Source: an uncultured Acidiferrobacteraceae bacterium
GTDB taxonomy: Bacteria > Pseudomonadota > Gammaproteobacteria > Acidiferrobacterales > SZUA-150
Length of the DNA stretch: 64,000 bases
Assembly (NCBI GenBank): GCA_913009895.1
Contig: CAJVXY010000007.1
Coordinates: 15,862-79,861, forward strand
Direction: 5' to 3'
The notes beneath the pieces are model-generated. The model was not told the DNA's origin, searched no databases, and saw only the letters and a program-made list of their open reading frames with translations. Positions 29,431 to 43,395 of this stretch are shown in pieces. The position numbers and the translations under genes are program-made. Numbering within the stretch: position 1 is the first letter of the stretch; every line of letters starts with the position of its first letter.

Positions 29431-29553
29431 GTCACACCGGTGTACACCTACAGGGATGTAGGTGGTACGAGCCCACGGATGGGCGAAGGTAGAACAATGC
29501 AGGAGCAATTGTCGAGAGCGACGTAGGATGCTAAAGCCGAAACCGGTGTCCAG
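29431..29553 (+). repeat. REP-like palindrome interrupted by two nested 48-nt cassettes
   Basis: GTCACACCGGTGTA|..|AACCGGTGTCCAG host; cassette A 29445-29467 plus 29516-29540; cassette C 29468-29515. Confidence 0.8.
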
Positions 29554-29585
29554 TTGTAAAGTCTAAATTACCAAATGTATTATCC

Positions 29586-29613
29586 AGGCCCCTATTGTTT
29601 AGGGGCTTTTTTT
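29586..29613 (+). terminator. ssb terminator
   Basis: AGGCCCCTA-TTGTT-TAGGGGCTTTTTTT. Confidence 0.75.
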
Positions 29614-29657
29614 ATATTTAAAAAATACAGCAGGTAAAGATAGCCGACGGAGGGTAC

Positions 29658-29692
29658 TTGACTTGCCCGTTAATTTGGGAAATAATTCCCAA
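29658..29692 (+). promoter_or_regulatory. sigma70 promoter overlapped by a palindromic operator
   Basis: TTGACT-N17-AATAAT; TTGGGAA-ATAA-TTCCCAA (29675-29692) covers the -10 box. Confidence 0.6.
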
Positions 29693-29777
29693 TATCGATG
29701 ATAGCTGAAAGGAATTAGCAATCTCGCATTTTATAGAATTTTTAAAACCTAATACGATCGATCAAGGAGAAGGGAAA

Positions 29778-30719
29778 ATGGAAAAAAATGGTATTAAACT
29801 GATATTTTCAGTATTTTTAGCGCTCATTTTGGCTGGTTGTGGCACTTCAGGCACAGATGGCGGTACAAATGGCACGAAAAGCATTTCAAAAGGTGAAATC
29901 ACCACAAAAACTACAACTTCTATCACAGTCAATAAAACACAATTCAGCTCTACCAGTGCTGATATTGTGACTGAAGATACCGGTGGTAGTGCTGAGTCTG
30001 AAATTGTGGTCGGCATGGTGGTCAAGGTGACCAGTGAAGATGGTGTGGTTGAAGAAATTGAGTATGACGAAGAGCTGGAAGGGCCGATTGCCGATGATCC
30101 TACAGGTGTTGGCACACTAGACAGAACATTCACTGTACTAGGCACTACTGTGGTTGTTGACGGCAGTACTGTTTACGGCAGCAACGATGTCGGTGTCCCT
30201 TACGCAGCAGCTGATATCGTCAAGCATCACGTGGTCGAGGTGAGTGGTTTTTATCAAATGGACGGCAGTTTGCTCGCCACCTATATTGAAATGAACGGTA
30301 CCCACCCTGCTAATAGTGAAGCAGAAATTAAAGGCGTAATCACACTTCTGAGTCCAACTCAGTTTACAATTGGTGGTGCCACCATCAAGTATGATTCAAG
30401 CATTATAAAACCGGACGAATTCCCATCTGGTTTGGACAATGGTATTTATGTTGAAGTTGAAGGCACACTTGATGGCGCAAGTTTCACAACCATTGTTGCC
30501 AAGGAAATCGAAAACGAAACTGAAGATGAAGGCAGCGAAGTTGAAGTTGAGGGCGTAGTCACAGGTTATGTGTCCGATGCTGATTTCATGGTCAACGGTA
30601 TTAAGGTGGATGCCTCTGGCGCAGACATAAGCGTAACGATTGCTGATGGCGTGATGGTCGATGTTGAAGGCACCATGGTCGGCGGTGTACTGGTAGCGAC
30701 TCAAGTTGAGGGTACCTAA
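29778..30719 (+). CDS. DUF5666-domain lipoprotein
   Basis: Lipobox LAGC; repeated GMVVKV / VEVSG / VEVEG units; very acidic. Confidence 0.8.
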   Translation: MEKNGIKLIFSVFLALILAGCGTSGTDGGTNGTKSISKGEITTKTTTSITVNKTQFSSTSADIVTEDTGGSAESEIVVGMVVKVTSEDGVVEEIEYDEELEGPIADDPTGVGTLDRTFTVLGTTVVVDGSTVYGSNDVGVPYAAADIVKHHVVEVSGFYQMDGSLLATYIEMNGTHPANSEAEIKGVITLLSPTQFTIGGATIKYDSSIIKPDEFPSGLDNGIYVEVEGTLDGASFTTIVAKEIENETEDEGSEVEVEGVVTGYVSDADFMVNGIKVDASGADISVTIADGVMVDVEGTMVGGVLVATQVEGT

Positions 30720-30769
30720 GACAAGCCTGGATTATTCAACAGGATTCCTCCAGTAAATGGGAGGGGGAG

Positions 30770-30814
30770 AGCTGCCGGTGACAAGGATACGTTGTCGGCG
30801 GCTTGTTTTTGTTT
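30770..30814 (+). terminator. Intra-operon terminator-like hairpin
   Basis: AGCTGCCGGTGAC-AAGGATAC-GTTGTCGGCGGCT then TGTTTTTGTTT. Confidence 0.5.
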
Positions 30815-30850
30815 GGCAGATAATTGATTTTCTTATTAGCTTTTTAAAAA

Positions 30851-31684
30851 ATGACTGAATCAAAATTACATCAGTTGTTGTCAGCAGCAGTCGTCAGGCT
30901 GCTAAGGCCGTTGGTACGCCTGTTAATACGCAATGGTATGTCTTTCGGAACTTTCTCTGACCTGGCAAAAAGAGTGTTTGTCGATATTGCCGATAAGGAT
31001 TTTGCCATTGATGGCAAAAAACAAACGGTCTCCCGTGTTTCAGTGATAACTGGCCTGTCACGTAAAGAAGTTTCACGAGTGTTATCCCTGCCCGCAGTTG
31101 CCGACGATTCAGCCCAGCAAGAACAGTACAACCGTGCTGCCCGAATTATCAGTGGCTGGGTCAATGATCCGGATTTTCAGAATCAAAATGACCAGCCCGC
31201 CGAGTTATCAATTGAGGGCAATGAAAAAAGTTTTTCCAGCCTGGTGAAAAAGTACAGTGGTGATGTGCCTGTGCGTGCCTTGCTGGATGAGTTGCTTAGG
31301 GTAGGCGCAGTCATAAAGCAGAAAAATAATATGTTGTTATTGAAGGAACGTGCATACGTGCCGCGGGCCGGTGACCTGGAAAATGTCGCCATACTCGGGG
31401 TTGATGTGGCCGGGTTACTCAACACCATTGATAATAACCTGCGGCCTGATGAACGGCAGTCATTATTTCAGCGCAAGGTTTATTATGACAATTTGCCGGA
31501 AGAGGCATTACAAGAGTTGCGGGAGATGACGCGAGAACATGGCCAGGCCTTACTGGAAAAACTGAATAAATGGATGATGCAACAGGATCGCGATACCAGT
31601 GCAAACAGTAGTGGTACCGGTCGTATGGCCGCCGGGGTGGGTGTGTATCTTTTTGAGGAAAGGATTAACGAGGAGATAAAGTGA
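30851..31684 (+). CDS. DUF6502 family protein (predicted HTH-containing)
   Basis: LLRPLVRLLIRNG, SRVSVITGLSRKEV, ISGWVNDPDF, SFSSLV..DVPVRALLDEL, FQRKVYYD, GVGVY. Confidence 0.82.
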   Translation: MTESKLHQLLSAAVVRLLRPLVRLLIRNGMSFGTFSDLAKRVFVDIADKDFAIDGKKQTVSRVSVITGLSRKEVSRVLSLPAVADDSAQQEQYNRAARIISGWVNDPDFQNQNDQPAELSIEGNEKSFSSLVKKYSGDVPVRALLDELLRVGAVIKQKNNMLLLKERAYVPRAGDLENVAILGVDVAGLLNTIDNNLRPDERQSLFQRKVYYDNLPEEALQELREMTREHGQALLEKLNKWMMQQDRDTSANSSGTGRMAAGVGVYLFEERINEEIK

Positions 31685-33159
31685 TGAACACACAAAGAAT
31701 GATCAAATATAGTTTGGTGTTGGCGATCTCCTTGCTAACTGCCTGTAATGGCGGCATTGGTGGAACCGGTGGCAAGGGCGGCGGCGGTGGCTCAAAAAAT
31801 GATATTTCAATTGGCACCGTCACAGCCACGGGTAGTGTCCAGGTAAACGGCGTTACTTTTAATACTTCCTCGGCGACAGTCACAATTGATGAGCTTGGTG
31901 CCCTTGAGACAGATCTTAAACAGGGCATGGTGGTAGAGGTCCGGGGCAGCATCAACAGCGAAACCGCTGGTAGCGCCGATACTGTGGCCGCTGAAGCGGT
32001 TGTCAAAGGACCAATCACTGCCATGCCTGTGAGCAACACACTGCAAATAGAGGTGTTAAAACAACTGGTCTTGCTTGATTCAGCAACCATTTTTATCGAT
32101 AGCAGTGGCGTTGTTATAACGTTGGACGTTTTTATTACCAATACAACTAATGGCGAACTGGTCGAGGTCAGCGGATTTGTCAAAGATAACGGTGTAATAG
32201 CGGCAACCCGAATTGAAAAGAAAACCAGTCTCGATGATTATAAGCTTAAGGGCATGATAACAAGAAAGTCAGCGACCACGTTTAATATCGGTACCCAGCT
32301 TGTGAATTTCTTTGGCGCGGATGTCAGTGATTTGCCTGGCGGCGCACTACCAGTTGATGATTCGTTGGTTGAAGTCAAAGCATCAATACCGTTGGGCGGT
32401 GGCGGTGAACTAGTCGCCATCCGGGTAGAGCTGGAAACAATACGCAATTCTGAAGGCTCAAAAATCGAACTGGAAGGTTATGTCACTGATGCGACTAGAG
32501 CGCCGGGGACTTTTTTCATTGGTAGCCAGGAGATACAAACCAATGGCGCAACAATATTTACTGGCGGTTTGCCTGCTGATATAAGATTGGGTGCTGAGGT
32601 CGAAGTGGAGGGCCAGATAACCCTTGGCATATTGATCGCCGATCAAGTCGAGTTTGAGTCCAATACCGAGGTTGAGGCGAAAACAACTGGTGTAACTATA
32701 GATGCTACAGGCGGTGGCATCATTACGCTTGATCTAGGTGGTGTGGATGATTTGGTTGTAGTAGTTACTGAGAATACAGAAATATCTACCCTTGACCTTG
32801 CAGGCAATAACCTGCTCTCGGATCTGGCAGCCAACGGTGGTAACCATATTCAGGTTAGCGGTAGTTATGATGCCGCTGCTCGAAACATTATTGCCACGAG
32901 TATTGAGGAAAAGACTGCCGACATTGATATTATTTTACAGGGTTCGGTCACCAAAATAACAAATACCGCACCACGATCAATAGAGATAATGGGTGTTACC
33001 GTCATACCTGATGGATCAGCGGTATATCGGGACGTGAATGACTTGCTAATTACCGACTTTGCTGCATTTCAGATACGGGTCTCCGTGGGGTCAATCGTAA
33101 AAGCAAAGAGCAAACAAAATGCACCTGTCTTATGGGATAAGCTAAGACTGAAATATTAA
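31684..33159 (+). CDS. DUF5666-domain lipoprotein
   Basis: Lipobox LTAC then GGIGGTG; repeated GMVVEVRG / VEVSG / VEVEG units; start overlaps the upstream stop. Confidence 0.82.
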   Translation: MNTQRMIKYSLVLAISLLTACNGGIGGTGGKGGGGGSKNDISIGTVTATGSVQVNGVTFNTSSATVTIDELGALETDLKQGMVVEVRGSINSETAGSADTVAAEAVVKGPITAMPVSNTLQIEVLKQLVLLDSATIFIDSSGVVITLDVFITNTTNGELVEVSGFVKDNGVIAATRIEKKTSLDDYKLKGMITRKSATTFNIGTQLVNFFGADVSDLPGGALPVDDSLVEVKASIPLGGGGELVAIRVELETIRNSEGSKIELEGYVTDATRAPGTFFIGSQEIQTNGATIFTGGLPADIRLGAEVEVEGQITLGILIADQVEFESNTEVEAKTTGVTIDATGGGIITLDLGGVDDLVVVVTENTEISTLDLAGNNLLSDLAANGGNHIQVSGSYDAAARNIIATSIEEKTADIDIILQGSVTKITNTAPRSIEIMGVTVIPDGSAVYRDVNDLLITDFAAFQIRVSVGSIVKAKSKQNAPVLWDKLRLKY

Positions 33160-33196
33160 TTTAATATTATATTTGCGATTTGATTCACACTTACAT

Positions 33197-33541
33197 TTAC
33201 CCGGGCGGCCAATGCATCTGGCGGCCGGCCAGCAAGTGCAGGTGGATGTGATAAACGGATTGACCTGCTTCGGCATTACAATTGATTACTGTTCGATACC
33301 CTGAGTCTGCCACGCCTTCATCTTCAGCAATTTTTTTTGCCGCCGTAAAAAGGTGACCAATTAACAGGCTATGCTCCTGTTGCAGATCGTTAAGGGTGGC
33401 AATATGAATTTTGGGAACAATCAGGACATGCAGGGGTGCTTGTGGATTGATATCACGGAAGGCAAAGACGTGCTCATCCTGATAAACACTATCGGTCGGA
33501 ATTTTGCCCGCGATCATTTTGCAAAACAGACAGTCACTCAT
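33197..33541 (-). CDS. hinT: HIT family purine nucleoside phosphoramidase
   Basis: DCLFCK..AGQSVYHIHLHLL histidine triad. Confidence 0.93.
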   Translation of the reverse strand: MSDCLFCKMIAGKIPTDSVYQDEHVFAFRDINPQAPLHVLIVPKIHIATLNDLQQEHSLLIGHLFTAAKKIAEDEGVADSGYRTVINCNAEAGQSVYHIHLHLLAGRQMHWPPG

Positions 33542-33649
33542 TGATACTTACCCGCGGTTTTAAAGATAACATAAAATCCCGATGCCAGAACGCCTCTGGA
33601 TAAGTCTTACGAATAATCTGCCACAACTTTAACACAGCACCCGCCAAAG

Positions 33650-34294
33650 ATGGTATTTTCAATGTTTAGTATTGCCAGTGAAATAAGTGCCGTGAGTCAA
33701 CTACGTGTAAAAGCCCTGGGGGGTCCTGAATTTGGCCCAATTGATCTTGATGTCGACCAGGGTCAATGTGTTTGTTTATCCGGGCCATCGGGTGCCGGCA
33801 AAACCATGTTAATGCGGTCTATTGTTGATCTCGATGATCATCAGGGCGAGGTGTGGGTGAATGGACAAACCGCATCATCAATGAGCGGGCCTTGCTGGCG
33901 AAAACAGGTCGGTTTTTTGCCAGCCCATAGTCACTGGTGGTTTGAAACCGTGGCGGAGCACTTGTCTGAGGTTGAACCTGCTTCCCTGGGAGCACTTGGA
34001 TTCGAGAATGACATTTTAGACAAGCCTGTTACCCGGCTTTCCACCGGCGAACAACAACGACTGGCTCTAATTCGGCTACTGGCAAACAAGCCGACAGTGC
34101 TTTTGCTGGATGAGCCTACCGCCAGTCTCGATCGGGAAAATGTGGCGCGTATTGAGTCGCTGGTTAAACAATATCGGCAGCAGCACAACGTTGCTGTCCT
34201 GTGGGTCAGTCACGATCAGGACCAGATTAAAAGAGTGGCCACACGGCAGCTCACCATTGAGCAAGGACAGCTAACAGGCGAACAATCATGGTGA
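33650..34294 (+). CDS. fetA: ABC transporter ATP-binding protein, FetA/YbbL-like (start uncertain, GTG 33692 possible)
   Basis: GPSGAGKT, LSTGEQQR, LLLDEPT, VSH. Confidence 0.75.
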   Translation: MVFSMFSIASEISAVSQLRVKALGGPEFGPIDLDVDQGQCVCLSGPSGAGKTMLMRSIVDLDDHQGEVWVNGQTASSMSGPCWRKQVGFLPAHSHWWFETVAEHLSEVEPASLGALGFENDILDKPVTRLSTGEQQRLALIRLLANKPTVLLLDEPTASLDRENVARIESLVKQYRQQHNVAVLWVSHDQDQIKRVATRQLTIEQGQLTGEQSW

Positions 34295-35088
34295 TTACCC
34301 TGACGCCCATCGACCTGGCCGTGGCGGCCTTGCTGGTGATTGCCCTGGCGGCGGTTTCGTGGCGGATGAAGCTGGGTGTGAGCAGTCAGCTGCTTGTTGC
34401 CGGGATCAGAACCATAATCCAGTTGCTGTTAGTCGGGTTGGTACTCAAGGTCCTGTTTGCCAATGCGGATTTGGGCTGGGTATTAATTATGGCAGTGGTG
34501 ATGTTACTGGCCGCGGGCCGGGAAGTGGTTGCTCGCCAACAACGCAAATTCAAAGGGGCCTGGGGTTTTGGTGTCGGCGTCAGCTCCATGTTTGTCTCCA
34601 CTTTTGTTATCACGTTATTTTCCCTGGTGGTCATTATTGGTGTAAAGCCCTGGTATGACCCGCAATATTCCATTCCGTTATTAGGCATGATGCTGGGCAA
34701 TACCATGAACGGTATTGCATTAAGCATGGATAGATTGCTGTACAGCTGCTGGCAACAAAGAGACGTTATTGAGGCCCGTTTATTAATGGGCCATTCAAGA
34801 GATGATGCCATTGGCAGTATACGCAAAGAAAGTATGCGCACAGGTATGATGCCAATGATTAATGCCATGGCTGCGGCCGGGATCGTTAGCTTGCCTGGCT
34901 TGATGACCGGCCAGATTCTCAGCGGTACAGAACCCCTTGAAGCGGTGAAGTATCAAATCCTGATTATGTTTATGATAACTGCCGGTGCCGGTTTTGGTAC
35001 CCTGGTTGCGGTCCAGTTAACAAGCCGTAGATTGTTTGATGAACGACACCGGTTACGACTCGACCACCTGGAGACTGTCAAGTCCTGA
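34288..35088 (+). CDS. fetB: ABC transporter permease FetB/YbbM (UPF0014)
   Basis: IPLLGMMLGN, GIVSLPGLMTGQILSG, AVKYQI. Confidence 0.88.
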   Translation: MVITLTPIDLAVAALLVIALAAVSWRMKLGVSSQLLVAGIRTIIQLLLVGLVLKVLFANADLGWVLIMAVVMLLAAGREVVARQQRKFKGAWGFGVGVSSMFVSTFVITLFSLVVIIGVKPWYDPQYSIPLLGMMLGNTMNGIALSMDRLLYSCWQQRDVIEARLLMGHSRDDAIGSIRKESMRTGMMPMINAMAAAGIVSLPGLMTGQILSGTEPLEAVKYQILIMFMITAGAGFGTLVAVQLTSRRLFDERHRLRLDHLETVKS

Positions 35089-35308
35089 CCAGGACTGGAA
35101 ATTACTTTTTTTGTTCAGGAACTTGCCACAGGTGCCAAAGTCGAAGTTAATGTCGGTTTTTTGGCGATGGTCATGGGCACAAATAAGTTGGAATAAATGC
35201 CCGTACTTGTGAATCTTATCTCAATAAACAAAAGTCTCGTATTATTTTATTGGTTATAACCTATTGATTATTAACATTATTAAAAAAGATAACAAGATGG
35301 AGAAAAGA

Positions 35309-35956
35309 ATGAATAGTAGATATTTTATGGTTTTGCTCTTTAGCATGGTCGTGACCATGCCGGTATCGGCAGCAGATACAGTACGGCCCCTCGATCCCAA
35401 CGTCGACCATGTTACGCGCTGGATCTGGTTCGTGGATGCGGTTCACGCACTCCATGAAAAGCAAATCAAGGGCAAAGACATTAAAATCGAAACCACTAAG
35501 GGCGGTTATGCCCGCTTACCTGATTTTTACCAGGAAAAAAAATATACTGATAAAAAAACCGGCCGTCTGTTAAGTAAAGTTTTGTGGGAGACAAAGAATG
35601 ATGATTTGCTGCATTCAATAGAAGTTTATGTCTACGATAAAAAAGGTCGTGTGATCCGTGACTTTGGTGGATCGTACCTGACCCATAGCCGCGCCGCCCC
35701 GCAGCAGACGTTGATTAGTTTGCACGTTTATAATCAGGGTTTGCATGCCATTCGACAATTTGATGCCACCGATGCCCGTATTTTTGAACTCTGTGAGGGG
35801 ACATTTCGTGGCAAAAAAATTGCAATGAGACTGGGTGATATGGAAATTCTTGAGTATGAGGATGAGCCCGTATCGCCAATGACAACCCCGCTTTACAAGG
35901 CGTGTTTTAAGGGCTTGCCGGTTAAAAGTGCCGGTAAGTATCTGACACCCCAATAA
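35309..35956 (+). CDS. Hypothetical exported protein
   Basis: GGAG RBS; signal peptide ending VSA|ADT; long ORF followed by terminator. Confidence 0.75.
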   Translation: MNSRYFMVLLFSMVVTMPVSAADTVRPLDPNVDHVTRWIWFVDAVHALHEKQIKGKDIKIETTKGGYARLPDFYQEKKYTDKKTGRLLSKVLWETKNDDLLHSIEVYVYDKKGRVIRDFGGSYLTHSRAAPQQTLISLHVYNQGLHAIRQFDATDARIFELCEGTFRGKKIAMRLGDMEILEYEDEPVSPMTTPLYKACFKGLPVKSAGKYLTPQ

Positions 35957-36016
35957 TGCTGGAAGGCCTGACTGCGCCGGGCTAGTTAACAAGGTTTGGC
36001 CGAATAACCCGGGCAA

Positions 36017-36049
36017 AAAAAAGCGTCTGAAAAATTCAGACGCTTTTTT
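36017..36049. terminator. Bidirectional intrinsic terminator
   Basis: AAAAAAGCGTCTGAA-AAA-TTCAGACGCTTTTTT. Confidence 0.85.
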
Positions 36050-36094
36050 ATTTCAGGGATAAGGCCGGCGAGAGCTGGCCTGATCCGGTCTTGC

Positions 36095-36124
36095 CCAGAT
36101 GTTGGTCTACCAGATGTTGGTCTA
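36095..36124. repeat. Exact 15-bp tandem duplication
   Basis: CCAGATGTTGGTCTA x2, second copy contains the HU stop codon. Confidence 0.8.
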
Positions 36125-36439
36125 TAAGACCATATCTTTCAGGCCTTTCAAAGGCGTGACCTTAACCACATTGCGGGCAGGTTTTGCCTTAAACATCATT
36201 TCTTCACCTGTGAATGGGTTGACACCTTTACGTGCCGCCACTGCAGGTTTTTTTACAACCTTGATTTTCATCATACCCGGGATACTGAAAATGCCTGGGC
36301 CTTTTTTAAGGTCGCTGCCAATCATGCTTGATAGGGCGTCAAATACGGCACCAACCTGTTTTTTTGTAAGCTCGGTTTCTTCAGAGATATAAGACATTAT
36401 CTCGGACTTTGTGCTGGGTTTTCCTGTTTTAGTTGCCAT
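36122..36439 (-). CDS. HU/IHF family DNA-binding protein (divergent HU-like subfamily)
   Basis: TKSEIM..LTKKQV..ARKGVNPFTGEEM..KPA. Confidence 0.9.
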   Translation of the reverse strand: MATKTGKPSTKSEIMSYISEETELTKKQVGAVFDALSSMIGSDLKKGPGIFSIPGMMKIKVVKKPAVAARKGVNPFTGEEMMFKAKPARNVVKVTPLKGLKDMVL

Positions 36440-36941
36440 TCATCACTCCTGCATCTTTGTTTTATTTAAGTGAGTAAATTCCCCTGAGGGTGGTAAATTC
36501 CTAGTGGGCATTACTAGTGGTATCAGTTTGTTTATGTTTTTAGTAATTCGATTATATAAAGACTTGTGTATATCAAAGAATTAAGATTCTAAAAAATTTA
36601 AATTTTATATATAAAGTAAATTTATAATTTACATTACAAATAAAATCGGTGTTTCAAGATCCTTTGTCAACGCCGGCGCCTAAAGTAGCACAACTTTATA
36701 CTGAAATGGTAGGGTCAAATGCACTTTTCGTCGGTTATATTTCACTTTTTTTCAAAAAAAAGTCTTTACAGAGTTTAGAATCGAGGTGTAGGCAGGTTTC
36801 GGTCAGAAATATTAACGAGTAATGTACAAAATTTAATGTAAATTCATGAAGTGGGTTGCCTGGATTATTTGGAAACTGTCTATATTATAATTAGTCCAGA
36901 TTAGCTCAGAAATCATTTTGGGGAAATAAGAAGATAGTGAT

Positions 36942-38720
36942 ATGGCTGTGACATGGTTTAAGTGGATGGTTCGTCAAATCTTCAGGGTACTGTATCGCGT
37001 TGAAATCAAGGGAATGGCACATTATCGTGCTGCCGGTGATCGTGTACTCATTATAGCGAATCATACTTCCTTCCTTGATGGTCTTTTTATGACCCTGTTT
37101 TTGCCTGACCGACTGGGTTTTGTGATTAATACCTATATTGCCCGGCTCTGGTGGGTGAAGCCTTTTTTGCGGTTCGTGGATATATTTGTACTTGACCATA
37201 CCCGCCCCATGGCGATACGAACCGTGATCGATTATGTGCGTAGCGGTAAACGAGCGGTCATTTTTCCAGAAGGCCGAATCACGTTAACCGGTTCATTGAT
37301 GAAGGTTTACCAGGGCAGTGGTCTGGCCGCCGATCGATGCCAGGCGGTCATCCTGCCAATTCGAATCGATGGGGCACAATATACGCCGCTCTCGCGACTG
37401 GAAGACCAGGTTCGGATTCGCTGGTTCCCCAGGATACGCATGACAATTATGCCGCCGCAGTCCCTGCAGTTGCCTGACGATATGAAAGGTCGCGCCAGGC
37501 GCGCCCGTGCCACATTATTTTTATCCGATTTAATGTCCGATATGGTATTCAGGACATCCCTCACCATCCGGTCCCTCAATGAGGCCATGCTGGTAGCCCG
37601 TGAAGTCCATGGCAAGAACCATATTATTCTGGATGATATTCATCGTCGCACCCTGGATTACGATACTTTTCTCGGCATAGTCTGGTCCTGGTCAGGAACA
37701 GTAAAAGCCCAGAAATTAGCACGTGCCGGGCTACTCACAGGCAACAGTATCTCAGCTGCTATCATTTTTTATGGATTGCAATGGACAAACACAACACCCG
37801 TACTAATCGATATTAATCTGGATGCGAGAAAAATAAAAAAAATGTTAATCAGTTCGGGGGTGACAACCGTTTACACATCCCTGAGCATAATGAAGACACT
37901 CCGTCGCGAACACCTTATCGAACAACTGGCTGATACATTGAAGGTTATTGATGTTGACCAGGAAATTCAAAAACTGATCCAGGATCCACCGTCAAAATTA
38001 TCAACCCGACTGAAGGTTTTCAGCGCCCGAATTAAATTGAACGAAAAAACTCCAAATTCACCTGCGGCAATTTTATATGCCAGGGACGAGGCAGGTGAAT
38101 TTCATGAACGAATTTACAGCCACGAAAACTTGTTGGTAGCACGGCAACAATTTGTAACCAGGTTCGATTTTAATTCTACAGATGTCATGTTTTGTGCCTG
38201 GCAGCCATATCACATTAATGGATTATTGATGGGCCTGGTTTTGCCTGTCCTCTCTGGCATTAAATCCTATTGTTACCCGGTGCCGGAACGATATCGTATT
38301 GCATCAGAGCTGATTTATGATGCTGGCACCACATTGCTGGCAGCACCAGAATCCTGTTTTGCCGGTTATGAAAAATATGCCCATGCCTACGATATGTATC
38401 ACGTGCGTTATGCGTTTTTATTTGACGCGAGTTCAGTTGAGTTATTAAAAAAAATCTACCGGCGATTCGGCGTCAGGATTTTGCAGGGTCATGCCGATGC
38501 ATTCAATGGCCTGATAGTTTCAATTAACACACCAATCGAAAACAAGTGGGGCTCGCTGGGCAAACCACTTCCAGGTATAACCTTGTCCAGTACCGGGCAG
38601 GGCAGTAATAATGACTATCTTTTAAGCAGTGACTCTGTGCCAGTCAATATCAGGGAGGACCCGGGTATTCCTGTTAAAAATATTTCGATAGATGACGATG
38701 GTTACCTGGTCCCGCGTTAA
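36942..38720 (+). CDS. aas: Aas-like protein: intact PlsC acyltransferase plus degenerate, truncated acyl-ACP synthetase domain
   Basis: ANHTSFLD, IFPEGRIT, PIRIDGAQY; adenylation-domain remnants SHENLL, YDAGTT, AHAYDM, RFGVRILQG. Confidence 0.75.
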   Translation: MAVTWFKWMVRQIFRVLYRVEIKGMAHYRAAGDRVLIIANHTSFLDGLFMTLFLPDRLGFVINTYIARLWWVKPFLRFVDIFVLDHTRPMAIRTVIDYVRSGKRAVIFPEGRITLTGSLMKVYQGSGLAADRCQAVILPIRIDGAQYTPLSRLEDQVRIRWFPRIRMTIMPPQSLQLPDDMKGRARRARATLFLSDLMSDMVFRTSLTIRSLNEAMLVAREVHGKNHIILDDIHRRTLDYDTFLGIVWSWSGTVKAQKLARAGLLTGNSISAAIIFYGLQWTNTTPVLIDINLDARKIKKMLISSGVTTVYTSLSIMKTLRREHLIEQLADTLKVIDVDQEIQKLIQDPPSKLSTRLKVFSARIKLNEKTPNSPAAILYARDEAGEFHERIYSHENLLVARQQFVTRFDFNSTDVMFCAWQPYHINGLLMGLVLPVLSGIKSYCYPVPERYRIASELIYDAGTTLLAAPESCFAGYEKYAHAYDMYHVRYAFLFDASSVELLKKIYRRFGVRILQGHADAFNGLIVSINTPIENKWGSLGKPLPGITLSSTGQGSNNDYLLSSDSVPVNIREDPGIPVKNISIDDDGYLVPR

Positions 38721-38763
38721 GATAATTTTTATTGCAATGTTAATAGTCGTTTAAAATTAAATC

Positions 38764-40050
38764 ATGAACAGAAGATCGTTTGTCGCGCTACTGGCCGGTG
38801 CCGGTGTATTAGCCGGTGCCTATGCCCTGATCCGACCCCGGGGCGGGTTTATTAACCCCTGTCTGCAGACACCCATGCCAGACGCCCTTGGCCAACATGA
38901 AATCGTACAGGCCGCCTGGCAAGGCATCGATATAAAACAGTTCTGGGATGTCCATGTCCACCTTGTTGGTCTCGGTCACGGCAATACCGGTGCCCGGGTC
39001 AACCCGGATATGCAAAGTCCTGATCATCCATTGCAATATGTGCAATATCAATTTTATTTGAACGCATCCTGCGCGCAAAACGCAAAAAATATTGATGCCG
39101 AGTATGTGCGACAGCTAAGACGATTACACGAAGGCCTCCTTAAATCTTTTGAAAATTCCTCTGCTAATACGATGGCCAAATTACCTGGTAAACCAGGCGC
39201 GGCCAAGTTGATGTTGTTGGCCTTTGACCAGGTATACGATGAGGCAGGGTACAAACAGCCTGACGCCAGCGCCTTTTACATACCAAACGAGTATGCTCAA
39301 TCCGTGACCAGGTCTTACCCAGATCAATTCGAATGGATTGCATCGGTTCATCCCTATCGCAAAGATGCCCTGGAACAATTACAGTGGTCAGTCAGTCGTG
39401 GTGCCCGGGCAATCAAATGGTTGCCCTCGGCCATGGGGATTAATCCTGGTTCACCATTGTGTGATGCTTTTTACGAGGCATTGGCCAGGTTCAATTTACC
39501 ATTATTAGTCCATGCCGGTAGTGAGATAGCTGTGTCCGGTCCTGGCGGCCAGGATTTAGGTAATCCGCTGCTCCTGAGAAGACCCCTGGAACGAGGTGTG
39601 AGAGTCATTGTTGCCCACAGCGCGTCATCCGGTGAAGGTGTTGATCTTGACCGGGGTAGCAACGGGGAGATGAAAACGAATTTTGAGTTATTTGCCCGGT
39701 TGATGGACGACAGTAATTACCAAAAGAATTTATTTGGTGAAATATCTGCCATCACCCAGGTAAATCGGGTTGGCCTGCCCCTGGAAACTATACTCAAAAA
39801 AGAAAGTTGGCGGGGTCGAATTCTTAACGGCAGTGATTACCCCTTGCCTGCCATTTTGCCTTTATTTTCTCTCGAATGGTTACAGCTTAAAGACTACATA
39901 TCTGCCAGCGAAGCCAGTGTCCTGGCAGATATTCGACTTTATAACCCGTTATTATTTGATTTTGTGTTGAAAAGGACCATACGTTTCCAGGGGCTCAGGC
40001 TGGCCACTGAAATCTTTCACACCAGGCGTTTTTTTATTGCCGCAAGTTGA
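38764..40050 (+). CDS. Amidohydrolase-2 family protein with Tat-like signal
   Basis: MNRRSFVALL; DVHVH, SVHPY, IKWLP, LVHAG, VAH, NGSDYP. Confidence 0.85.
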   Translation: MNRRSFVALLAGAGVLAGAYALIRPRGGFINPCLQTPMPDALGQHEIVQAAWQGIDIKQFWDVHVHLVGLGHGNTGARVNPDMQSPDHPLQYVQYQFYLNASCAQNAKNIDAEYVRQLRRLHEGLLKSFENSSANTMAKLPGKPGAAKLMLLAFDQVYDEAGYKQPDASAFYIPNEYAQSVTRSYPDQFEWIASVHPYRKDALEQLQWSVSRGARAIKWLPSAMGINPGSPLCDAFYEALARFNLPLLVHAGSEIAVSGPGGQDLGNPLLLRRPLERGVRVIVAHSASSGEGVDLDRGSNGEMKTNFELFARLMDDSNYQKNLFGEISAITQVNRVGLPLETILKKESWRGRILNGSDYPLPAILPLFSLEWLQLKDYISASEASVLADIRLYNPLLFDFVLKRTIRFQGLRLATEIFHTRRFFIAAS

Positions 40051-40251
40051 ATAATTGTGAATCGTCATGTCACGCTGCATGGTTATTGGGTTGTAGATCG
40101 TCTATTTGCCCACAATAATTCCGATTTAATACTGTTTCCTGTTGCCAGCAAGGCTATAATCCGGTCAAATTTTTAGACCTGTTTTTAGACTTGGCGCTGG
40201 TTATGAGCCCTTGGTTTTTACCGGAATCTTAACCAGTTGGAGATTTTTTAT

Positions 40252-40518
40252 ATGCCGATTTACGAATACCGTTGTCAAAGTTGTGGCCATGAATTTGAGT
40301 CTATGCAAAAAATGAGTGAGCCACGGCTCACCGATTGTCCTGAGTGTGGCAAGGCCGAACTCAAAAAAATGGTATCGGCAGCTGGCTTCAAACTTAAAGG
40401 GACTGGCTGGTATGAGACCGATTTTAAAAATTCTGGCAAAGCCGGTAAAAAAGAAACCAGCGCCAAACCTGCTGAAAAAAAGGCAGCGCCAAAAAAATCC
40501 AGCGGCGATGCCCATTAA
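40252..40518 (+). CDS. FmdB family zinc-ribbon protein
   Basis: MPIYEYRCQSCG..CPECG..FKLKGTGWYETDF. Confidence 0.92.
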   Translation: MPIYEYRCQSCGHEFESMQKMSEPRLTDCPECGKAELKKMVSAAGFKLKGTGWYETDFKNSGKAGKKETSAKPAEKKAAPKKSSGDAH

Positions 40519-40551
40519 TATTTTAACTATTTCGAGTCAGGGAGCCTGCCC

Positions 40552-41184
40552 ATGCGTCGATATTTGATCGCAGGACTGCTTGTCTGGGTGCCGTTGGGAG
40601 TAACCTTTTTCATCATTAAGTACCTGGTGGATTTGCTGGATCAGACCCTGTTATTGTTACCCCTTGCCTATCGACCAGAAACCCTCACGGGTTTTCATAT
40701 CCCTGGTCTGGGCGTAATCCTGACCGTGATCGTGCTGCTGGTCACAGGCATGGTGGCTGCCAATTTATTTGGCCGCACACTAGTGAATATCTGGGAAAGC
40801 CTGCTGGCACGGATTCCCCTGGTGCGATCAATTTATTCCGGGGTCAAACAAATAATGGCCACCTTGTTTTCAGATTCCAGCAAATCTTTCAAGGAAGTGG
40901 TGATGGTCGAGTACCCGCGTCGTGGCGCCTGGACTCTGGCTTTTGTCACGGGGGCAGGCTGGCAGCCAGCCAAAGCGCTGGTAAATGAAGATTTAGTGAA
41001 TATTTATGTGCCAACCACGCCGAATCCTACCTCGGGATTCTTTCTTATGGTGCCCCGTAAGGATATTATGGCGCTCGACTTATCGATTGATGATGGTCTA
41101 AAGATGATATTATCTTTGGGGTTGATCGAGCCACCCGTTGCAATGGGTCAAGTGGTAACAACTGACAATAAGCCAGCCGATTAA
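40552..41184 (+). CDS. DUF502 domain membrane protein
   Basis: RIPLVRSIY, VEYPRRG, VPTTPNPTSGF. Confidence 0.92.
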   Translation: MRRYLIAGLLVWVPLGVTFFIIKYLVDLLDQTLLLLPLAYRPETLTGFHIPGLGVILTVIVLLVTGMVAANLFGRTLVNIWESLLARIPLVRSIYSGVKQIMATLFSDSSKSFKEVVMVEYPRRGAWTLAFVTGAGWQPAKALVNEDLVNIYVPTTPNPTSGFFLMVPRKDIMALDLSIDDGLKMILSLGLIEPPVAMGQVVTTDNKPAD

Positions 41185-41222
41185 TATTAGATGGGTTTTC
41201 CCTCGCAGATTACTTCAAATAC

Positions 41223-41370
41223 TGTCATTCCGGCAAACGACTGCAGGGACGCAGGAGGTAGAGCGACGCAGGAAGCCAAAGCCGAAGCCGGAATCCATGT
41301 TGGAGCGGAGTGTCGTAATAAAGGTGGATGCAATTTTTTGAAATGGATACCGGCATACGCCGGTATGACA
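41223..41370. repeat. REP doublet (GTCATTCCGGC..GCCGGAATCCA type) with a 48-nt cassette in the first loop
   Basis: TGTCATTCCGGCAAA|B 41238-41285|AGCCGGAATCCA ... inverted TGGATACCGGCATACGCCGGTATGACA. Confidence 0.85.
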
Positions 41371-41452
41371 AACAAAGTAAGTGTCCTGTCGGATTGTTAC
41401 CGAGCAATTTAATTTTTAGAGAGTGAATCATAGAATGACGGAAATAACCGGC

Positions 41453-43225
41453 ATGCGTAGCCATTTTTGTGGCCAGGTTAACGAAGACCTGGTGGATGAG
41501 ACGATTACAGTCTGTGGTTGGGTGGATACCCGGCGCGATCATGGTGGTGTGATTTTTATTGACATGCGTGACCGTGAAGGTTTGTTGCAGGTTGTTTTTG
41601 ATCCCGATAGCCCTGAAACATTTAAAATCGCTGAACAGGTGCGCAATGAATTTGTCCTGCAGGTTGAAGGCAAGGTCAGGCGCCGACCGGAAGGCACGAC
41701 CAATAGCCAGCTAAAAACCGGCATGGTGGAAGTCCTTGCCAAAAAAGTAGAGGTGTTAAACCGGTCAGAGCCTATTCCATTCCAGCTTGATGATACCGAG
41801 ATCAGTGAGTCCGTACGTTTGAATTATCGATTTCTGGATTTACGTCGCCAGTTTATGCATAACAATATTCGCCTGCGCCACAAGGTGACACGTTGCATGC
41901 GACATTTCCTCGATGATCATGGTTTCATTGATATTGAAACACCCATGCTGACGCGCTCAACCCCGGAGGGCGCCCGTGATTACCTGGTGCCAAGCCGGGT
42001 TTACGGTGGTCAATTTTTTGCCTTGCCGCAATCACCCCAGATTTTTAAGCAATTACTCATGATTGCGGGCTTTGAGCGTTATTACCAGATCGCCCGTTGT
42101 TTTCGCGATGAAGATTTACGTGCTGACCGGCAACCGGAATTTACCCAGCTGGATATCGAACTGGCATTTGTAGATGAAGAAACCATTATGGGTCTCATGG
42201 AAAACATGATGCGGACACTCTTTGAGTCGGTCATAGACGTCAAACTAGTCGATCCTTTTCCGCGCCTGACCTGGCACGATGCCATGTCCCGTTACGGTTC
42301 TGACCGGCCTGATTTGCGCAACCCACTGGAATTGGTCGAGCTTGGCGATGTCATGCAGGACGTGGAATTTAAAGTTTTTGCCGGACCGGCAAAAGACGAA
42401 AACGGCCGCGTAGCCGCCTTGCGAGTACCTGGTGGTAACGAGCTGTCACGCAAACAGATTGATGAGTATACAAACTATGTAGCGGAATACGGCGCCAGGG
42501 GTTTGGCATACATCAAGGTAAATAAAATTGATCAGGGGCGGGAAGGCCTGCAATCACCGATTCTGAAATTTCTGCCCGATGAAGTCGTGACCACTATTCT
42601 TGAACGAACGTTGGCCGCTGACGGTGATTTGATTTTCTTCGGCGCCGATAAAACCAGCATCGTCAATGATGCCCTGGGTGCGTTACGCGACCAGTTGGGC
42701 GCGGACCTGGGCCTGATTGCAGATGGCTGGAAACCCCTGTGGGTGGTCGATTTCCCCATGTTCGAATATGACGCAACTAACAAACGCTTCAAGGCCCTGC
42801 ATCATCCTTTTACGGCACCCCAGGAACAAAGCAGTGTTGATAAAGAACCGGCCGCGGCCTTGTCCCGTGCCTATGATTTGGTGCTTAATGGTTCAGAATT
42901 GGGCGGTGGTTCAATTCGTATTCATCAACCCGACGTACAGCAAAAAGTATTTGCGGCGTTGGGCATTGAAGATGAGGAAGCCAACGAAAAATTTGGTTTT
43001 TTGCTTAAGGCCCTGAAATTTGGCGCACCCCCCCATGGCGGTATTGCCTTTGGCCTGGATCGCATCGTCGCCATGATGGTGGGCGCGGAATCGATCCGTG
43101 ATGTAATTGCGTTTCCGAAAACACAAAAAGCATCTTGTTTGCTCACCAACGCGCCGAGTGTGGTAGATGACAAGCAACTGCGTGAACTCAATATCAAATT
43201 GCGCCGCATCCCAACTAACGAATAA
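41453..43225 (+). CDS. aspS: Aspartate--tRNA ligase, probably non-discriminating Asp/Asn
   Basis: [41 protein letters not shown]. Confidence 0.98.
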
Positions 43226-43233
43226 GGATCAAT

Positions 43234-43395
43234 GCAGCCCGTATGCAGCGCACGAGCCCATGGAAGGGCGAGGGTACAATTCCAGGAAAGGAATCGGTAG
43301 AGTCGAGTCAGGAACAGAGACCGAGCAATTATCGAACGTAATCCGGGGCTTATATAAGATCTTTTCCGGATTCCATTTTATTTCATCCAGGCTAC
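43234..43395. repeat. GTAG-family REP doublet with nested 48-nt-type cassettes
   Basis: GCAGCCCGTATGCAGCGCA|C'[D]|ACGTAATCCGGG and inverted partner TCCGGATTCC..CATCCAGGCTAC. Confidence 0.8.

What the first reader, a model, noticed from the sequence alone, without database searches (positions are those of the whole stretch)
29431..43395. Family of 48-nt mobile cassettes that insert into REP loops and into each other
Seen: three intergenic loci hold five related units. A is 29445-29467 plus 29516-29540, C is 29468-29515, B is 41238-41285, D is 43277-43324, and C' is 43253-43276 plus 43325-43335. A, B, C and D are each exactly 48 nt; C' lacks 13 nt. The complete units start with C, end with CGA, and have an A(N)GGA-loop hairpin, a central GGTAGA and a second AGGA. 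A and B match at 39/48 with a compensatory stem change (CTAC/GTAG vs CTGC/GCAG). Removing them restores intact REP palindromes of two unrelated families with no target duplication. Insertion points are GTA|A, AAA|A and GCA|A in REP loops, and GGTA|G inside another cassette (twice), so each cassette carries its own target. Inference: a minimal, site-specific, non-autonomous element mobilised in trans by a TSD-less mechanism. Candidates are an HUH/RAYT-type enzyme (GTAG is the known REP guide motif) or an IS110-type recombinase. I know no name for this element.
Basis: partly seen in the sequence, partly recalled or inferred. Interest (0 to 1): 0.85.

Follow-up and report, generated by a model that had tools for sequence, protein, structure and literature searches.

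The report
Tiny 48-base mobile hairpin cassettes
A 47-48-base DNA unit with two small hairpins has been copied into hairpin loops, other repeats, its own copies and even protein genes in many Gammaproteobacteria, and none of the enzyme families tested here tracks with it.

Summary
They belong to a real family. A covariance model built from 16 copies finds 28 hits in this 2.85-Mb draft genome, 19 of them full length. It finds the unit in 43 of 103 genomes of the same order, almost always at exactly 47-48 nt. An exact 20-mer from the core occurs in at least 120 stretches of named Gammaproteobacteria and Mariprofundaceae.

Matched filled and empty sites show a precise 48-nt insertion with no target duplication. 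One pair is an E. coli BREX pglX gene, where the unit is in frame and adds 16 residues. Another is a Pseudomonas TIR-MITE.

The target is loose. It is an A|R step, usually in an unpaired loop, at four different points inside other cassettes. Head-to-tail arrays reach eight units.

Y1/RAYT, IS110 and DUF559 genes neither co-occur with the cassette nor sit beside it, so the mobilising enzyme is unknown.

Both hairpin loops match the CsrA-binding consensus. However, 5 of 20 informative copies lie antisense to their genes, so an RNA role cannot be general.

Verdict: a real, widespread, non-autonomous mini-element. It is a new variant of the REP/MITE kind.

The parts
29434..29444 (+). Left arm (ACACCGGT) and first three loop bases of the palindrome that encloses units A and C
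   Evidence: Read. The whole block is absent at the orthologous site of the same-genus genome.
29445..29467 (+). Unit A, 5' part (23 nt), ending in GGTA
   Evidence: nhmmer matches model positions 1-23.
29468..29515 (+). Unit C, complete and 48 nt, nested in A at GGTA|GA
   Evidence: R1 hit at G000:C7:45329-45376, E 8.6e-14. A 98% identical copy lies on contig C10.
29516..29540 (+). Unit A, 3' part (25 nt)
   Evidence: model positions 23-48.
29541..29549 (+). Last loop base and right arm (ACCGGTGT) of the enclosing palindrome
29586..29613 (+). Probable intrinsic terminator of ssb (G+C hairpin followed by a T run). The cassettes lie between the ssb stop codon (29420) and this hairpin.
   Evidence: Read. 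The hairpin and T run are conserved in the same-genus genome. No terminator scan was run.
41218..41369 (+). Composite repeat of about 150 nt that contains the locus-2 palindrome, unit B and a second small palindrome (41347-41366)
   Evidence: 83% identical to G000:C35:26648-26794. Flanks compared.
41227..41237 (+). Left arm (ATTCCGGC) and loop AAA of the palindrome that encloses B
   Evidence: The 74-nt palindrome+B composite recurs on 6 contigs of the same-genus genome at 89-93% identity.
41238..41285 (+). Unit B, complete and 48 nt
   Evidence: R1 E 3.1e-16. 46 of 48 letters identical to copies in Pseudomonas sediminis by my own count. Metagenome contigs lose similarity exactly at 41237 and at 41285 or 41297.
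41286..41294 (+). Loop base and right arm (GCCGGAAT) of the enclosing palindrome
43253..43276 (+). Unit C', 5' part (24 nt, ending in GGTA)
   Evidence: 88% identical to the start of C.
43277..43324 (+). Unit D, complete and 48 nt, nested in C'
   Evidence: R1 E 2.0e-12. Related copies on contigs C6 and C55.
43325..43335 (+). Unit C', 3' part (11 nt). 13 nt of the C-type unit are missing between the two parts.
   Evidence: The same right junction (D-type unit followed by GCAATT) is seen in contigs of other organisms.

Best explanation
The units are copies of a miniature, non-autonomous mobile DNA element of 47-48 nt. Its layout is CGA, then a 4-5-bp hairpin with an NGGA loop, then an invariant linker containing GGTAG, then a second hairpin with an A(N)GGA loop, then CGA.

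Shown:
- It enters DNA precisely, without duplicating the target and without terminal inverted repeats.
- It enters at an A|R step, most often A|G.
- That step usually lies in an unpaired stretch. Examples are the loop of a palindrome, the centre of a larger MITE, the linker or a loop of another cassette, or the right end of another cassette, which gives tandem arrays.
- Neighbouring and nested copies are nearly always co-oriented.
- Composites of a host palindrome or MITE plus a cassette then spread as units.

Inferred:
- It moves as a folded single strand, cut and rejoined in trans by a structure-guided enzyme that reads the two similar hairpins and the GTAG linker. This is the way IS200/IS605 ends and REPs are handled by HUH/Y1 enzymes.
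- That enzyme was not identified. The Y1 family itself shows no linkage or co-occurrence with the cassette.
For: Family and unit length:
- 28 hits, 19 of them full length, in this genome.
- 43 of 103 genomes of the order carry it, and hits are almost all 47-48 nt.
- 97 hits in 80 named loci.
- At least 120 stretches across Gammaproteobacteria and Mariprofundaceae hold the exact 20-mer.

Precise insertion without target duplication:
- E. coli ZF34 pglX reads ..GCAGA|48 nt|CAACC.., while two plasmid pglX alleles read ..GCAGA|CAACC...
- Copies of a Pseudomonas MITE read ..ACGCA|GGTAG.. when empty and hold 48 nt at that point when filled.
- An intact unit on contig C2 matches a C16 unit that is split by a 48-nt insert at GCA|GGA.

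Presence or absence at orthologous sites.

Target:
- Base -1 is A in 61 of 67 copies. Base +1 is G in about 58 of 67, by my own count.
- Nested sites seen are GGTA|GA, GGA|GGTAG, GCA|GGA and GGA|GC.

Structure: 9 of 11 pairs covary.

Co-orientation of adjacent copies.

In-frame copies in two genes, both in the same frame.

The core is near-identical between Methylococcales-like genomes and Pseudomonas: 46 of 48 letters by my count.
Against: - No mobilising gene was found.
- Y1_Tnp is present in 31 of 43 cassette-bearing genomes and in 47 of 60 cassette-free genomes. Genomes with 37 copies (95% complete) and 11 copies (94% complete) have no Y1 match.
- None of 33 Y1 loci is flanked by cassettes on both sides. 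Four have one cassette within about 1.5 kb, which is near the background density.
- Target specificity is far looser than the fixed short target words recalled for IS200/IS605 elements.
- On the one-contig Shewanella chromosome, the strands of 56 listed loci show no clean two-domain pattern by eye. The origin was not located, so this is weak evidence.
- Many copies sit in larger repeats, so they may owe their spread to those hosts.
- No within-species polymorphism, excision product or circle junction was seen.
Confidence: 0.5

Rival explanations
1. The cassette has no transposition of its own. It spreads only as a passenger of larger mobile repeats (palindrome composites, TIR-MITEs), by tandem slippage, and by recombination or gene conversion among repeats.
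For: - The 74-nt palindrome+B composite and a composite of about 150 nt are themselves repeated.
- A 214-nt TIR-MITE carrying a cassette is present in P. sediminis and absent at the same site in E. toyotomiensis.
- Tandem arrays of up to 8 units occur in Shewanella.
- 5' and 3' halves are recombined between subtypes, with loose ends at 41270-41276.
- No enzyme was found.
Against: - The bare 48 nt sits in an otherwise collinear pglX gene with no host repeat around it.
- It sits in a second gene in G072.
- It sits at four different points inside other cassettes, and at one point inside MITE copies whose paralogues are empty there.
- The borders are the same to the base in unrelated contexts.
Confidence: 0.2
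2. The cassette is the cognate REP of one particular RAYT (Y1/HUH) lineage, and that enzyme moves it.
For: - The 3' half has REP layout: GTAG, two unpaired bases, a hairpin and a 3-nt tail. That layout is described for families GTAG-1 and GTAG-2 in passages of PMC3733652.
- The same paper reports REPs inside palindromes and inside genes.
- This genome has 7 Y1_Tnp matches.
Against: - There is no co-occurrence: 31 of 43 against 47 of 60.
- None of 33 Y1 loci is flanked on both sides.
- None of the 7 Y1 matches of this genome shares a contig with a cassette hit. Their flanks hold other short repeats.
Confidence: 0.15
3. The unit acts mainly as RNA. It would be a portable dual binding site for CsrA/RsmA that places the host transcript under Csr control or titrates the protein.
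For: - Invariant hairpin-1 letters are C7, A8, G10, A12 and G14, with GGA in a four-base loop. Hairpin 2 also shows GGA in its loop.
- The SELEX consensus RUACARGGAUGU has ACA and GGA fully conserved, GGA in short hairpin loops, and dual-site bridging at 10-63 nt. I read this in passages of PMC7652899.
- The two GGA motifs of a unit lie about 25 nt apart.
- CsrA genes occur in 93 of 103 genomes of the order, and this genome has 2.
- Copies lie about 40-50 nt upstream of the purD-like and leuB-like start codons.
Against: - 5 of 20 informative copies are antisense to co-directional flanking genes.
- Copies inside coding sequence need no RNA role.
- CsrA is as common in the family with 0 of 19 cassette-bearing genomes.
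- No Csr/Rsm family of Rfam matches.
- The linker is as conserved as the loops.
Confidence: 0.12
4. An IS110-type (DEDD, bridge-RNA) recombinase inserts the cassette.
For: This family inserts without target duplication or inverted repeats and often into REPs. That is recalled knowledge. This genome has 2 matches.
Against: - IS110 is present in 21 of 43 cassette-bearing genomes and in 32 of 60 cassette-free genomes.
- Genomes with 49, 60, 59, 37 and 35 cassette hits have none.
- The target is only an A|R step, not a long programmed site.
Confidence: 0.03

Closest known systems
REP / REPIN elements of the GTAG super-family and their RAYT (Y1/HUH) enzymes
   Same: - Short, mostly extragenic, hairpin-forming and multi-copy.
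- A GTAG word lies 5' of a hairpin, with two unpaired bases and a 3-nt tail.
- REPs are known inside other palindromes and in frame inside genes, and known to form clusters. I read this in passages of PMC3733652.
   Different: - The unit has two unlike hairpins in tandem on one strand. It is not a single palindrome or an inverted doublet.
- It has a fixed length of 47-48 nt and near-identical sequence across classes.
- It nests in itself and forms head-to-tail arrays.
- No RAYT linkage or co-occurrence was found.
- The consensus sequences of the published GTAG families are in figures and supplements that I could not see. Overlap with GTAG-1 or GTAG-2 of Shewanella is therefore not excluded.
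IS200/IS605 ends and their ORF-less derivatives (palindrome-associated transposable elements)
   Same: - No terminal inverted repeats and no target duplication.
- Subterminal hairpins on one strand.
- Oriented insertion next to a short target, and precise borders.
The family properties are recalled.
   Different: - It is several times smaller than any such element I recall.
- Only one base of the target is near-constant.
- Only 3 nt lie outside each hairpin.
- No autonomous partner with matching ends was found.
Small dispersed repeats of heterocyst-forming cyanobacteria (very small mobile repeats that insert into one another). Recalled; the paper itself is not in the searchable library, and it appeared only among citing papers.
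   Same: Tiny structured units that nest inside each other and have no known enzyme.
   Different: The phylum, sequence and length differ.
Rickettsia palindromic elements
   Same: A short structured repeat found in frame inside protein genes, adding a peptide. This is mentioned in PMC3733652.
   Different: Those elements are longer, belong to a different lineage and are not known to nest. Here 2 coding copies were found by chance inspection, not by a census.
TIR-type MITEs
   Same: Small, non-autonomous and multi-copy.
   Different: The cassette has no terminal inverted repeats and makes no target duplication. In Pseudomonas it is a passenger inside such a MITE.

Membership tests
REP/RAYT (REPIN) system | GTAG-tagged imperfect palindrome | tested here: met
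   GGTAG is invariant in 16 of 16 copies, and also in the 67 aligned copies, where it lies inside the 20-mer used to collect them. It is followed by AG and hairpin 2, whose pairs covary. Hairpin 1 has no such tag.
REP/RAYT (REPIN) system | The cognate RAYT gene is flanked by its repeats | tested here: not met
   None of 33 Y1_Tnp loci from 5 genomes (about 90 kb) has cassettes on both sides. Four have a single cassette between 0.3 and 1.4 kb away.
REP/RAYT (REPIN) system | The repeat family and a Y1 gene are present together | tested here: not met
   Y1 is present in 31 of 43 cassette-bearing and 47 of 60 cassette-free genomes of the order. 12 cassette-bearing genomes have no match, some of them incomplete.
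IS200/IS605-derived non-autonomous element | No inverted terminal repeats, no target duplication, hairpins near both ends | tested here: met
   Filled and empty pairs. Structure.
IS200/IS605-derived non-autonomous element | Insertion 3' of a fixed 4-5-nt target word | tested here: not met
   Only base -1 (A, 61 of 67 copies) is near-constant. Bases -3 and -2 vary.
IS200/IS605-derived non-autonomous element | Strand bias that follows the direction of replication | tested here: inconclusive
   56 listed loci on a one-contig Shewanella chromosome give 22 plus and 34 minus, with no clean switch by eye. The origin and GC skew were not determined because the script machine was lost.
IS200/IS605-derived non-autonomous element | Ends shared with an autonomous element | not tested
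   No search for genes bounded by cassette halves was possible without scripts.
TIR-MITE | Terminal inverted repeats and a target-site duplication | tested here: not met
   The ends are CGA...CGA in direct order. The junctions show no duplication.
IS110 / bridge-RNA recombinase cargo | Presence of a DEDD IS110 transposase together with the element | tested here: not met
   21 of 43 against 32 of 60.
Csr/Rsm-binding RNA | Several GGA motifs in short hairpin loops at bridging distance | tested here: met
   Two per unit, about 25 nt apart. The consensus was taken from PMC7652899.
Csr/Rsm-binding RNA | Transcribed in the sense orientation | tested here: inconclusive
   15 sense against 5 antisense among 20 copies with co-directional flanking ORFs or inside genes. 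No RNA run was available.
Csr/Rsm-binding RNA | Match to a described Csr/Rsm sRNA family | tested here: not met
   Rfam gave no match at gathering score on the window, nor at E<=1 on three cassette loci.

The most novel reading that the evidence does not exclude
The cassette is both things at once. It would be a self-propagating DNA module that invades unpaired loops by an enzyme class not yet linked to mobile DNA, since Y1, IS110 and DUF559 do not track it. It would also be a portable pair of consensus CsrA sites that rewires post-transcriptional control wherever it lands in the sense orientation. That dual role could explain why its sequence is held almost constant from Methylococcales-like genomes to Pseudomonas, Shewanella and Mariprofundaceae.
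Probability: 0.12. Interest if true: 0.85.

Novelty: new variant of a known kind. Interest (0 to 1): 0.6.

Why it matters
At 47-48 nt this is near the lower size limit for a discrete mobile DNA.

Its borders are defined to the base. It occurs in many Gammaproteobacteria and is kept almost letter for letter across them. It inserts into hairpin loops, into itself and in frame into genes, including a phage-defence methyltransferase.

That makes it a compact system for asking how REP-like DNA is moved, which is still an open question. It also shows that the usual suspect enzymes are not obviously responsible.

Practically, it breaks assemblies, creates spurious ORF extensions (seen) and adds 16-residue inserts to proteins.

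If its loops really bind CsrA, it would be a mobile regulatory site.

Tried and rejected
Candidate enzymes and partners
- RAYT/Y1 as the partner: no linkage and no co-occurrence.
- DUF559 endonuclease: it was suggested by one gene flanked by inverted cassettes. It is present in 23 of 43 cassette-bearing genomes against 16 of 60 cassette-free ones. It is absent from this genome, and only 2 of 31 loci have an adjacent cassette. Rejected.
- IS110: rejected.
- CsrA phyletic profile: uninformative, because CsrA is present in 93 of 103 genomes.

Database searches
- Rfam: no match.
- Phage records: no match to a 48-nt unit.
- Plasmid and E. coli records: only the pglX copies and a few Pseudoalteromonas and Catenovulum hits.

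Comparisons that did not give a clean answer
- Orthologues of the G072 protein that carries a copy: none found in 25 relatives with this query, so there is no second empty coding site.
- Same-genus comparison at loci 2 and 3: the spacers hold other repeats or other genes, so they are not clean empty sites.

Sequencing runs
- No RNA holder was listed.
- The laid contigs do not bridge the three loci in the likely source run, so nothing can be said on excision in this strain.

Folding energies
- They are only modestly better than shuffles, with z from +0.1 to -3.2.

Literature
- Searches found no description of this unit.
- Of PMC3733652 and PMC7652899 I read passages only. Figures and supplements were not available.

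Tool losses
- The script machine was lost. As a result there is no genome-wide flank logo, GC-skew test, gene-association screen or proper gene calling. Orientation was judged from ORF lists by eye.
- My notebook gives 17:6 for orientation. The stricter recount used in this report is 15:5.

Full report
**Observation**

The three loci read as described. Slicing by coordinates gives A, B, C and D at 48 nt each and C' at 35 nt. A and B are identical at 39 of 48 positions.

All three loci are intergenic.
- A/C lies between the stop codon of an ssb-like gene, whose product ends in DDDIPF, and a hairpin with a T run.
- B lies between two plus-strand ORFs.
- C'/D lies between convergent ORFs.

**Is it a family?**

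In this genome:
- blastn-short and nhmmer found about 25-30 further copies on many contigs of the 2.85-Mb, 73-contig genome.
- An alignment of 16 contiguous copies has 15 invariant columns, among them the GGTAG core and the terminal CGA.
- RNAalifold and a hand-set structure give two hairpins. 9 of 11 pairs change on both sides, 84% of cells are paired, and none of 500 shuffles reached this. Slid controls fall to 16-49% paired.
- The covariance model R1 finds 28 hits in the genome, 19 of them full length.

Beyond this genome:
- R1 finds hits in 43 of 103 genomes of the same order. Counts reach the scoring cap of about 60. The distribution is patchy: 0 of 19 in one family and 8 of 9 in another.
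The records were titled Methylobacter, Methylococcaceae, Shewanella, Pseudomonas, Sedimenticola, Thiomicrorhabdus, Neptunomonas, Endozoicomonas, Lysobacterales, Cellvibrionaceae, Zhongshania, Ectothiorhodospiraceae and Mariprofundaceae.
- In 80 of those loci R1 gave 97 hits, almost all 47-48 nt long.
- Unit B differs from Pseudomonas sediminis copies at 2 of 48 positions, by my count.
- In four metagenomes, contig depth piles up exactly on the three cassette bins. Similarity is lost at the unit borders.

**Mobility**

- pglX. Two E. coli chromosomes of 5,426 genomes, and two enterobacterial plasmids, carry a full unit at 94% identity inside the BREX gene pglX. It is in frame and adds DCMDAGGRATQDAKAD. 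Two plasmid pglX alleles at 87-88% identity read straight through the same point. The filled site is ..GCAGA|48 nt|CAACC.. and nothing is duplicated. An unrelated 30-nt indel lies just upstream.
- Second coding copy. A copy in G072 adds DSRDGGGRATHGAVAD in the same frame.
- Pseudomonas MITE. At a site where flanks are 90% identical, a 214-nt element with terminal inverted repeats holds a cassette in P. sediminis. The element is absent from E. toyotomiensis. Four cassette-free paralogues of that MITE read ..ACGCA|GG.. where the filled copy has the 48 nt; three of them continue GGTAG.
- Paralogous split unit. A unit on contig C16 is split by another unit at GCA|GGA. An intact near-identical unit lies on contig C2.
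- Same-genus comparison. That genome has 49 hits but lacks the whole palindrome+A+C block after ssb, while keeping the terminator.

**Target**

In 67 aligned copies with 20-nt flanks, base -1 is A in 61. Base +1 is G in about 58, by my own count.

Because the unit also ends in A, its borders can be shifted by one base. A one-base duplication therefore cannot be excluded.

Flanks are very often short inverted repeats of unrelated sequence, so the unit sits in a loop.

Sites seen inside other cassettes:
- GGTA|GA: window A/C, and contigs of other organisms.
- GGA|GGTAG: two loci.
- GCA|GGA: contig C16.
- GGA|GC: other organisms. This also matches the right junction of C'/D.

The right junction CGA|G recreates an A|G step. 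This fits the head-to-tail arrays, which reach eight 47-nt units in a Shewanella genome with at least 117 hits.

Adjacent copies are nearly always co-oriented.

**Hitch-hiking**

The locus-2 palindrome plus B recurs as a 74-nt composite on six contigs of the same-genus genome, and as a block of about 150 nt in this genome.

Another two-hairpin repeat regularly carries a unit in its central loop.

Empty forms of the two window palindromes are not over-represented.

**Which enzyme?**

| Candidate | Cassette-bearing genomes with it | Cassette-free genomes with it | Physical linkage |
|---|---|---|---|
| Y1_Tnp (RAYT/IS200) | 31 of 43 | 47 of 60 | 0 of 33 loci flanked on both sides |
| IS110 | 21 of 43 | 32 of 60 | not tested |
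| DUF559 | 23 of 43 | 16 of 60 | 2 of 31 loci with an adjacent cassette |

This genome has 7 Y1_Tnp matches, none on a contig with a cassette. A 95%-complete genome with 37 cassette hits has no Y1 match. DUF559 was raised by one flanked gene and is absent from this genome.

**DNA or RNA?**

Both loops fit the CsrA consensus. In hairpin 1 the letters C, A, any base, G, G, A, any base, G are fixed. The two GGA motifs lie about 25 nt apart, within the bridging range quoted in PMC7652899. CsrA is near-universal in the order.

Orientation, for copies with co-directional flanking ORFs or inside genes:
- 15 are sense and 5 are antisense. A two-sided binomial test gives about 0.04, computed by hand.
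- In Shewanella alone the split is 4 to 3.
- Ten further copies lie between convergent genes.
- Four lie in 5' regions, all sense to the downstream gene.

ORFs were judged by eye from ORF lists, so these counts are rough. An obligatory RNA role is therefore unlikely. A mild sense bias remains unexplained.

**Comparison with known kinds**

The 3' half has the layout of GTAG-tagged REPs. REPs inside palindromes and genes are in print (PMC3733652, passages read). I could not see that paper's consensus figures.

The two-hairpin architecture with fixed length, the self-nesting, the tandem arrays, the conservation across classes and the lack of a RAYT link all set this unit apart.

I class it as a new variant of the REP/MITE kind.

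Confidence that it is a mobile, non-autonomous cassette is about 0.85. Confidence in the single-strand, HUH-like mechanism is much lower. The combined statement is scored 0.5.

Noticed in passing
G000 genome-wide (12-mer counts); not located in the window: The commonest long repeat of the genome, with about 65 copies by overlapping 12-mers, is a GTAG-tagged hairpin. Its loop also holds a GGA motif, so it looks like a classical REP family distinct from the cassette.
   Followed up: no
L021-L024 (G000 contigs C25, C9, C23), L241 1800-1847, and many loci: A second two-hairpin repeat with GGA loops regularly carries a cassette in its central loop at CA|GGA or CA|AGA. In G000 one such composite lies about 40 nt upstream of a purD-like start codon. 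In the same-genus genome one lies about 50 nt upstream of a leuB-like start. ORF callers would extend both genes through it.
   Followed up: partly
L280 456-669; L287-L290: A Pseudomonas MITE of about 120-214 nt with terminal inverted repeats of about 16 nt. It has many copies in E. toyotomiensis, and some copies carry the cassette near the right end.
   Followed up: partly
L238 669-716 (+) and 1222-1269 (-): Two cassettes in inverted orientation flank a 121-residue DUF559 endonuclease-like gene. A second DUF559 gene (L242) has a cassette directly beside it. The other 29 DUF559 loci have none.
   Followed up: yes
L038 (G000:C34:6608-7107): A cassette is interrupted after its GGTAGAG linker by an insert of about 52 nt. 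The insert is of a different repeat type, has its own GGA-loop hairpin, and lies in the opposite orientation.
   Followed up: no
L027 (G000:C2, just 3' of the cassette at 141159-141206): A run of about six heptamer repeats (TCCCTAG-like) follows the cassette within 35 nt.
   Followed up: no
L200 3960-4000 compared with L201 and L202: The pglX alleles also differ by a 30-nt in-frame indel immediately upstream of the cassette insertion point.
   Followed up: no
G000:C11:15810-15965 and C10:2541-2696 (L048, L049): This genome has two CsrA paralogues. Some relatives have 10-15 matches.
   Followed up: no
L002 3400-3530 (same-genus genome, spacer orthologous to window 41185-41422): The orthologous spacer holds other short repeats instead of B. 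These include GTCATTCC-type words and a GGA-loop hairpin, and the same repeats are seen elsewhere in G000. Intergenic repeat content turns over quickly between the two species.
   Followed up: no
L230 and L231 (G072): The cassette-encoded peptide also matches inside two other long open frames of this G+C-rich genome. These may be further coding insertions or chance open frames.
   Followed up: no
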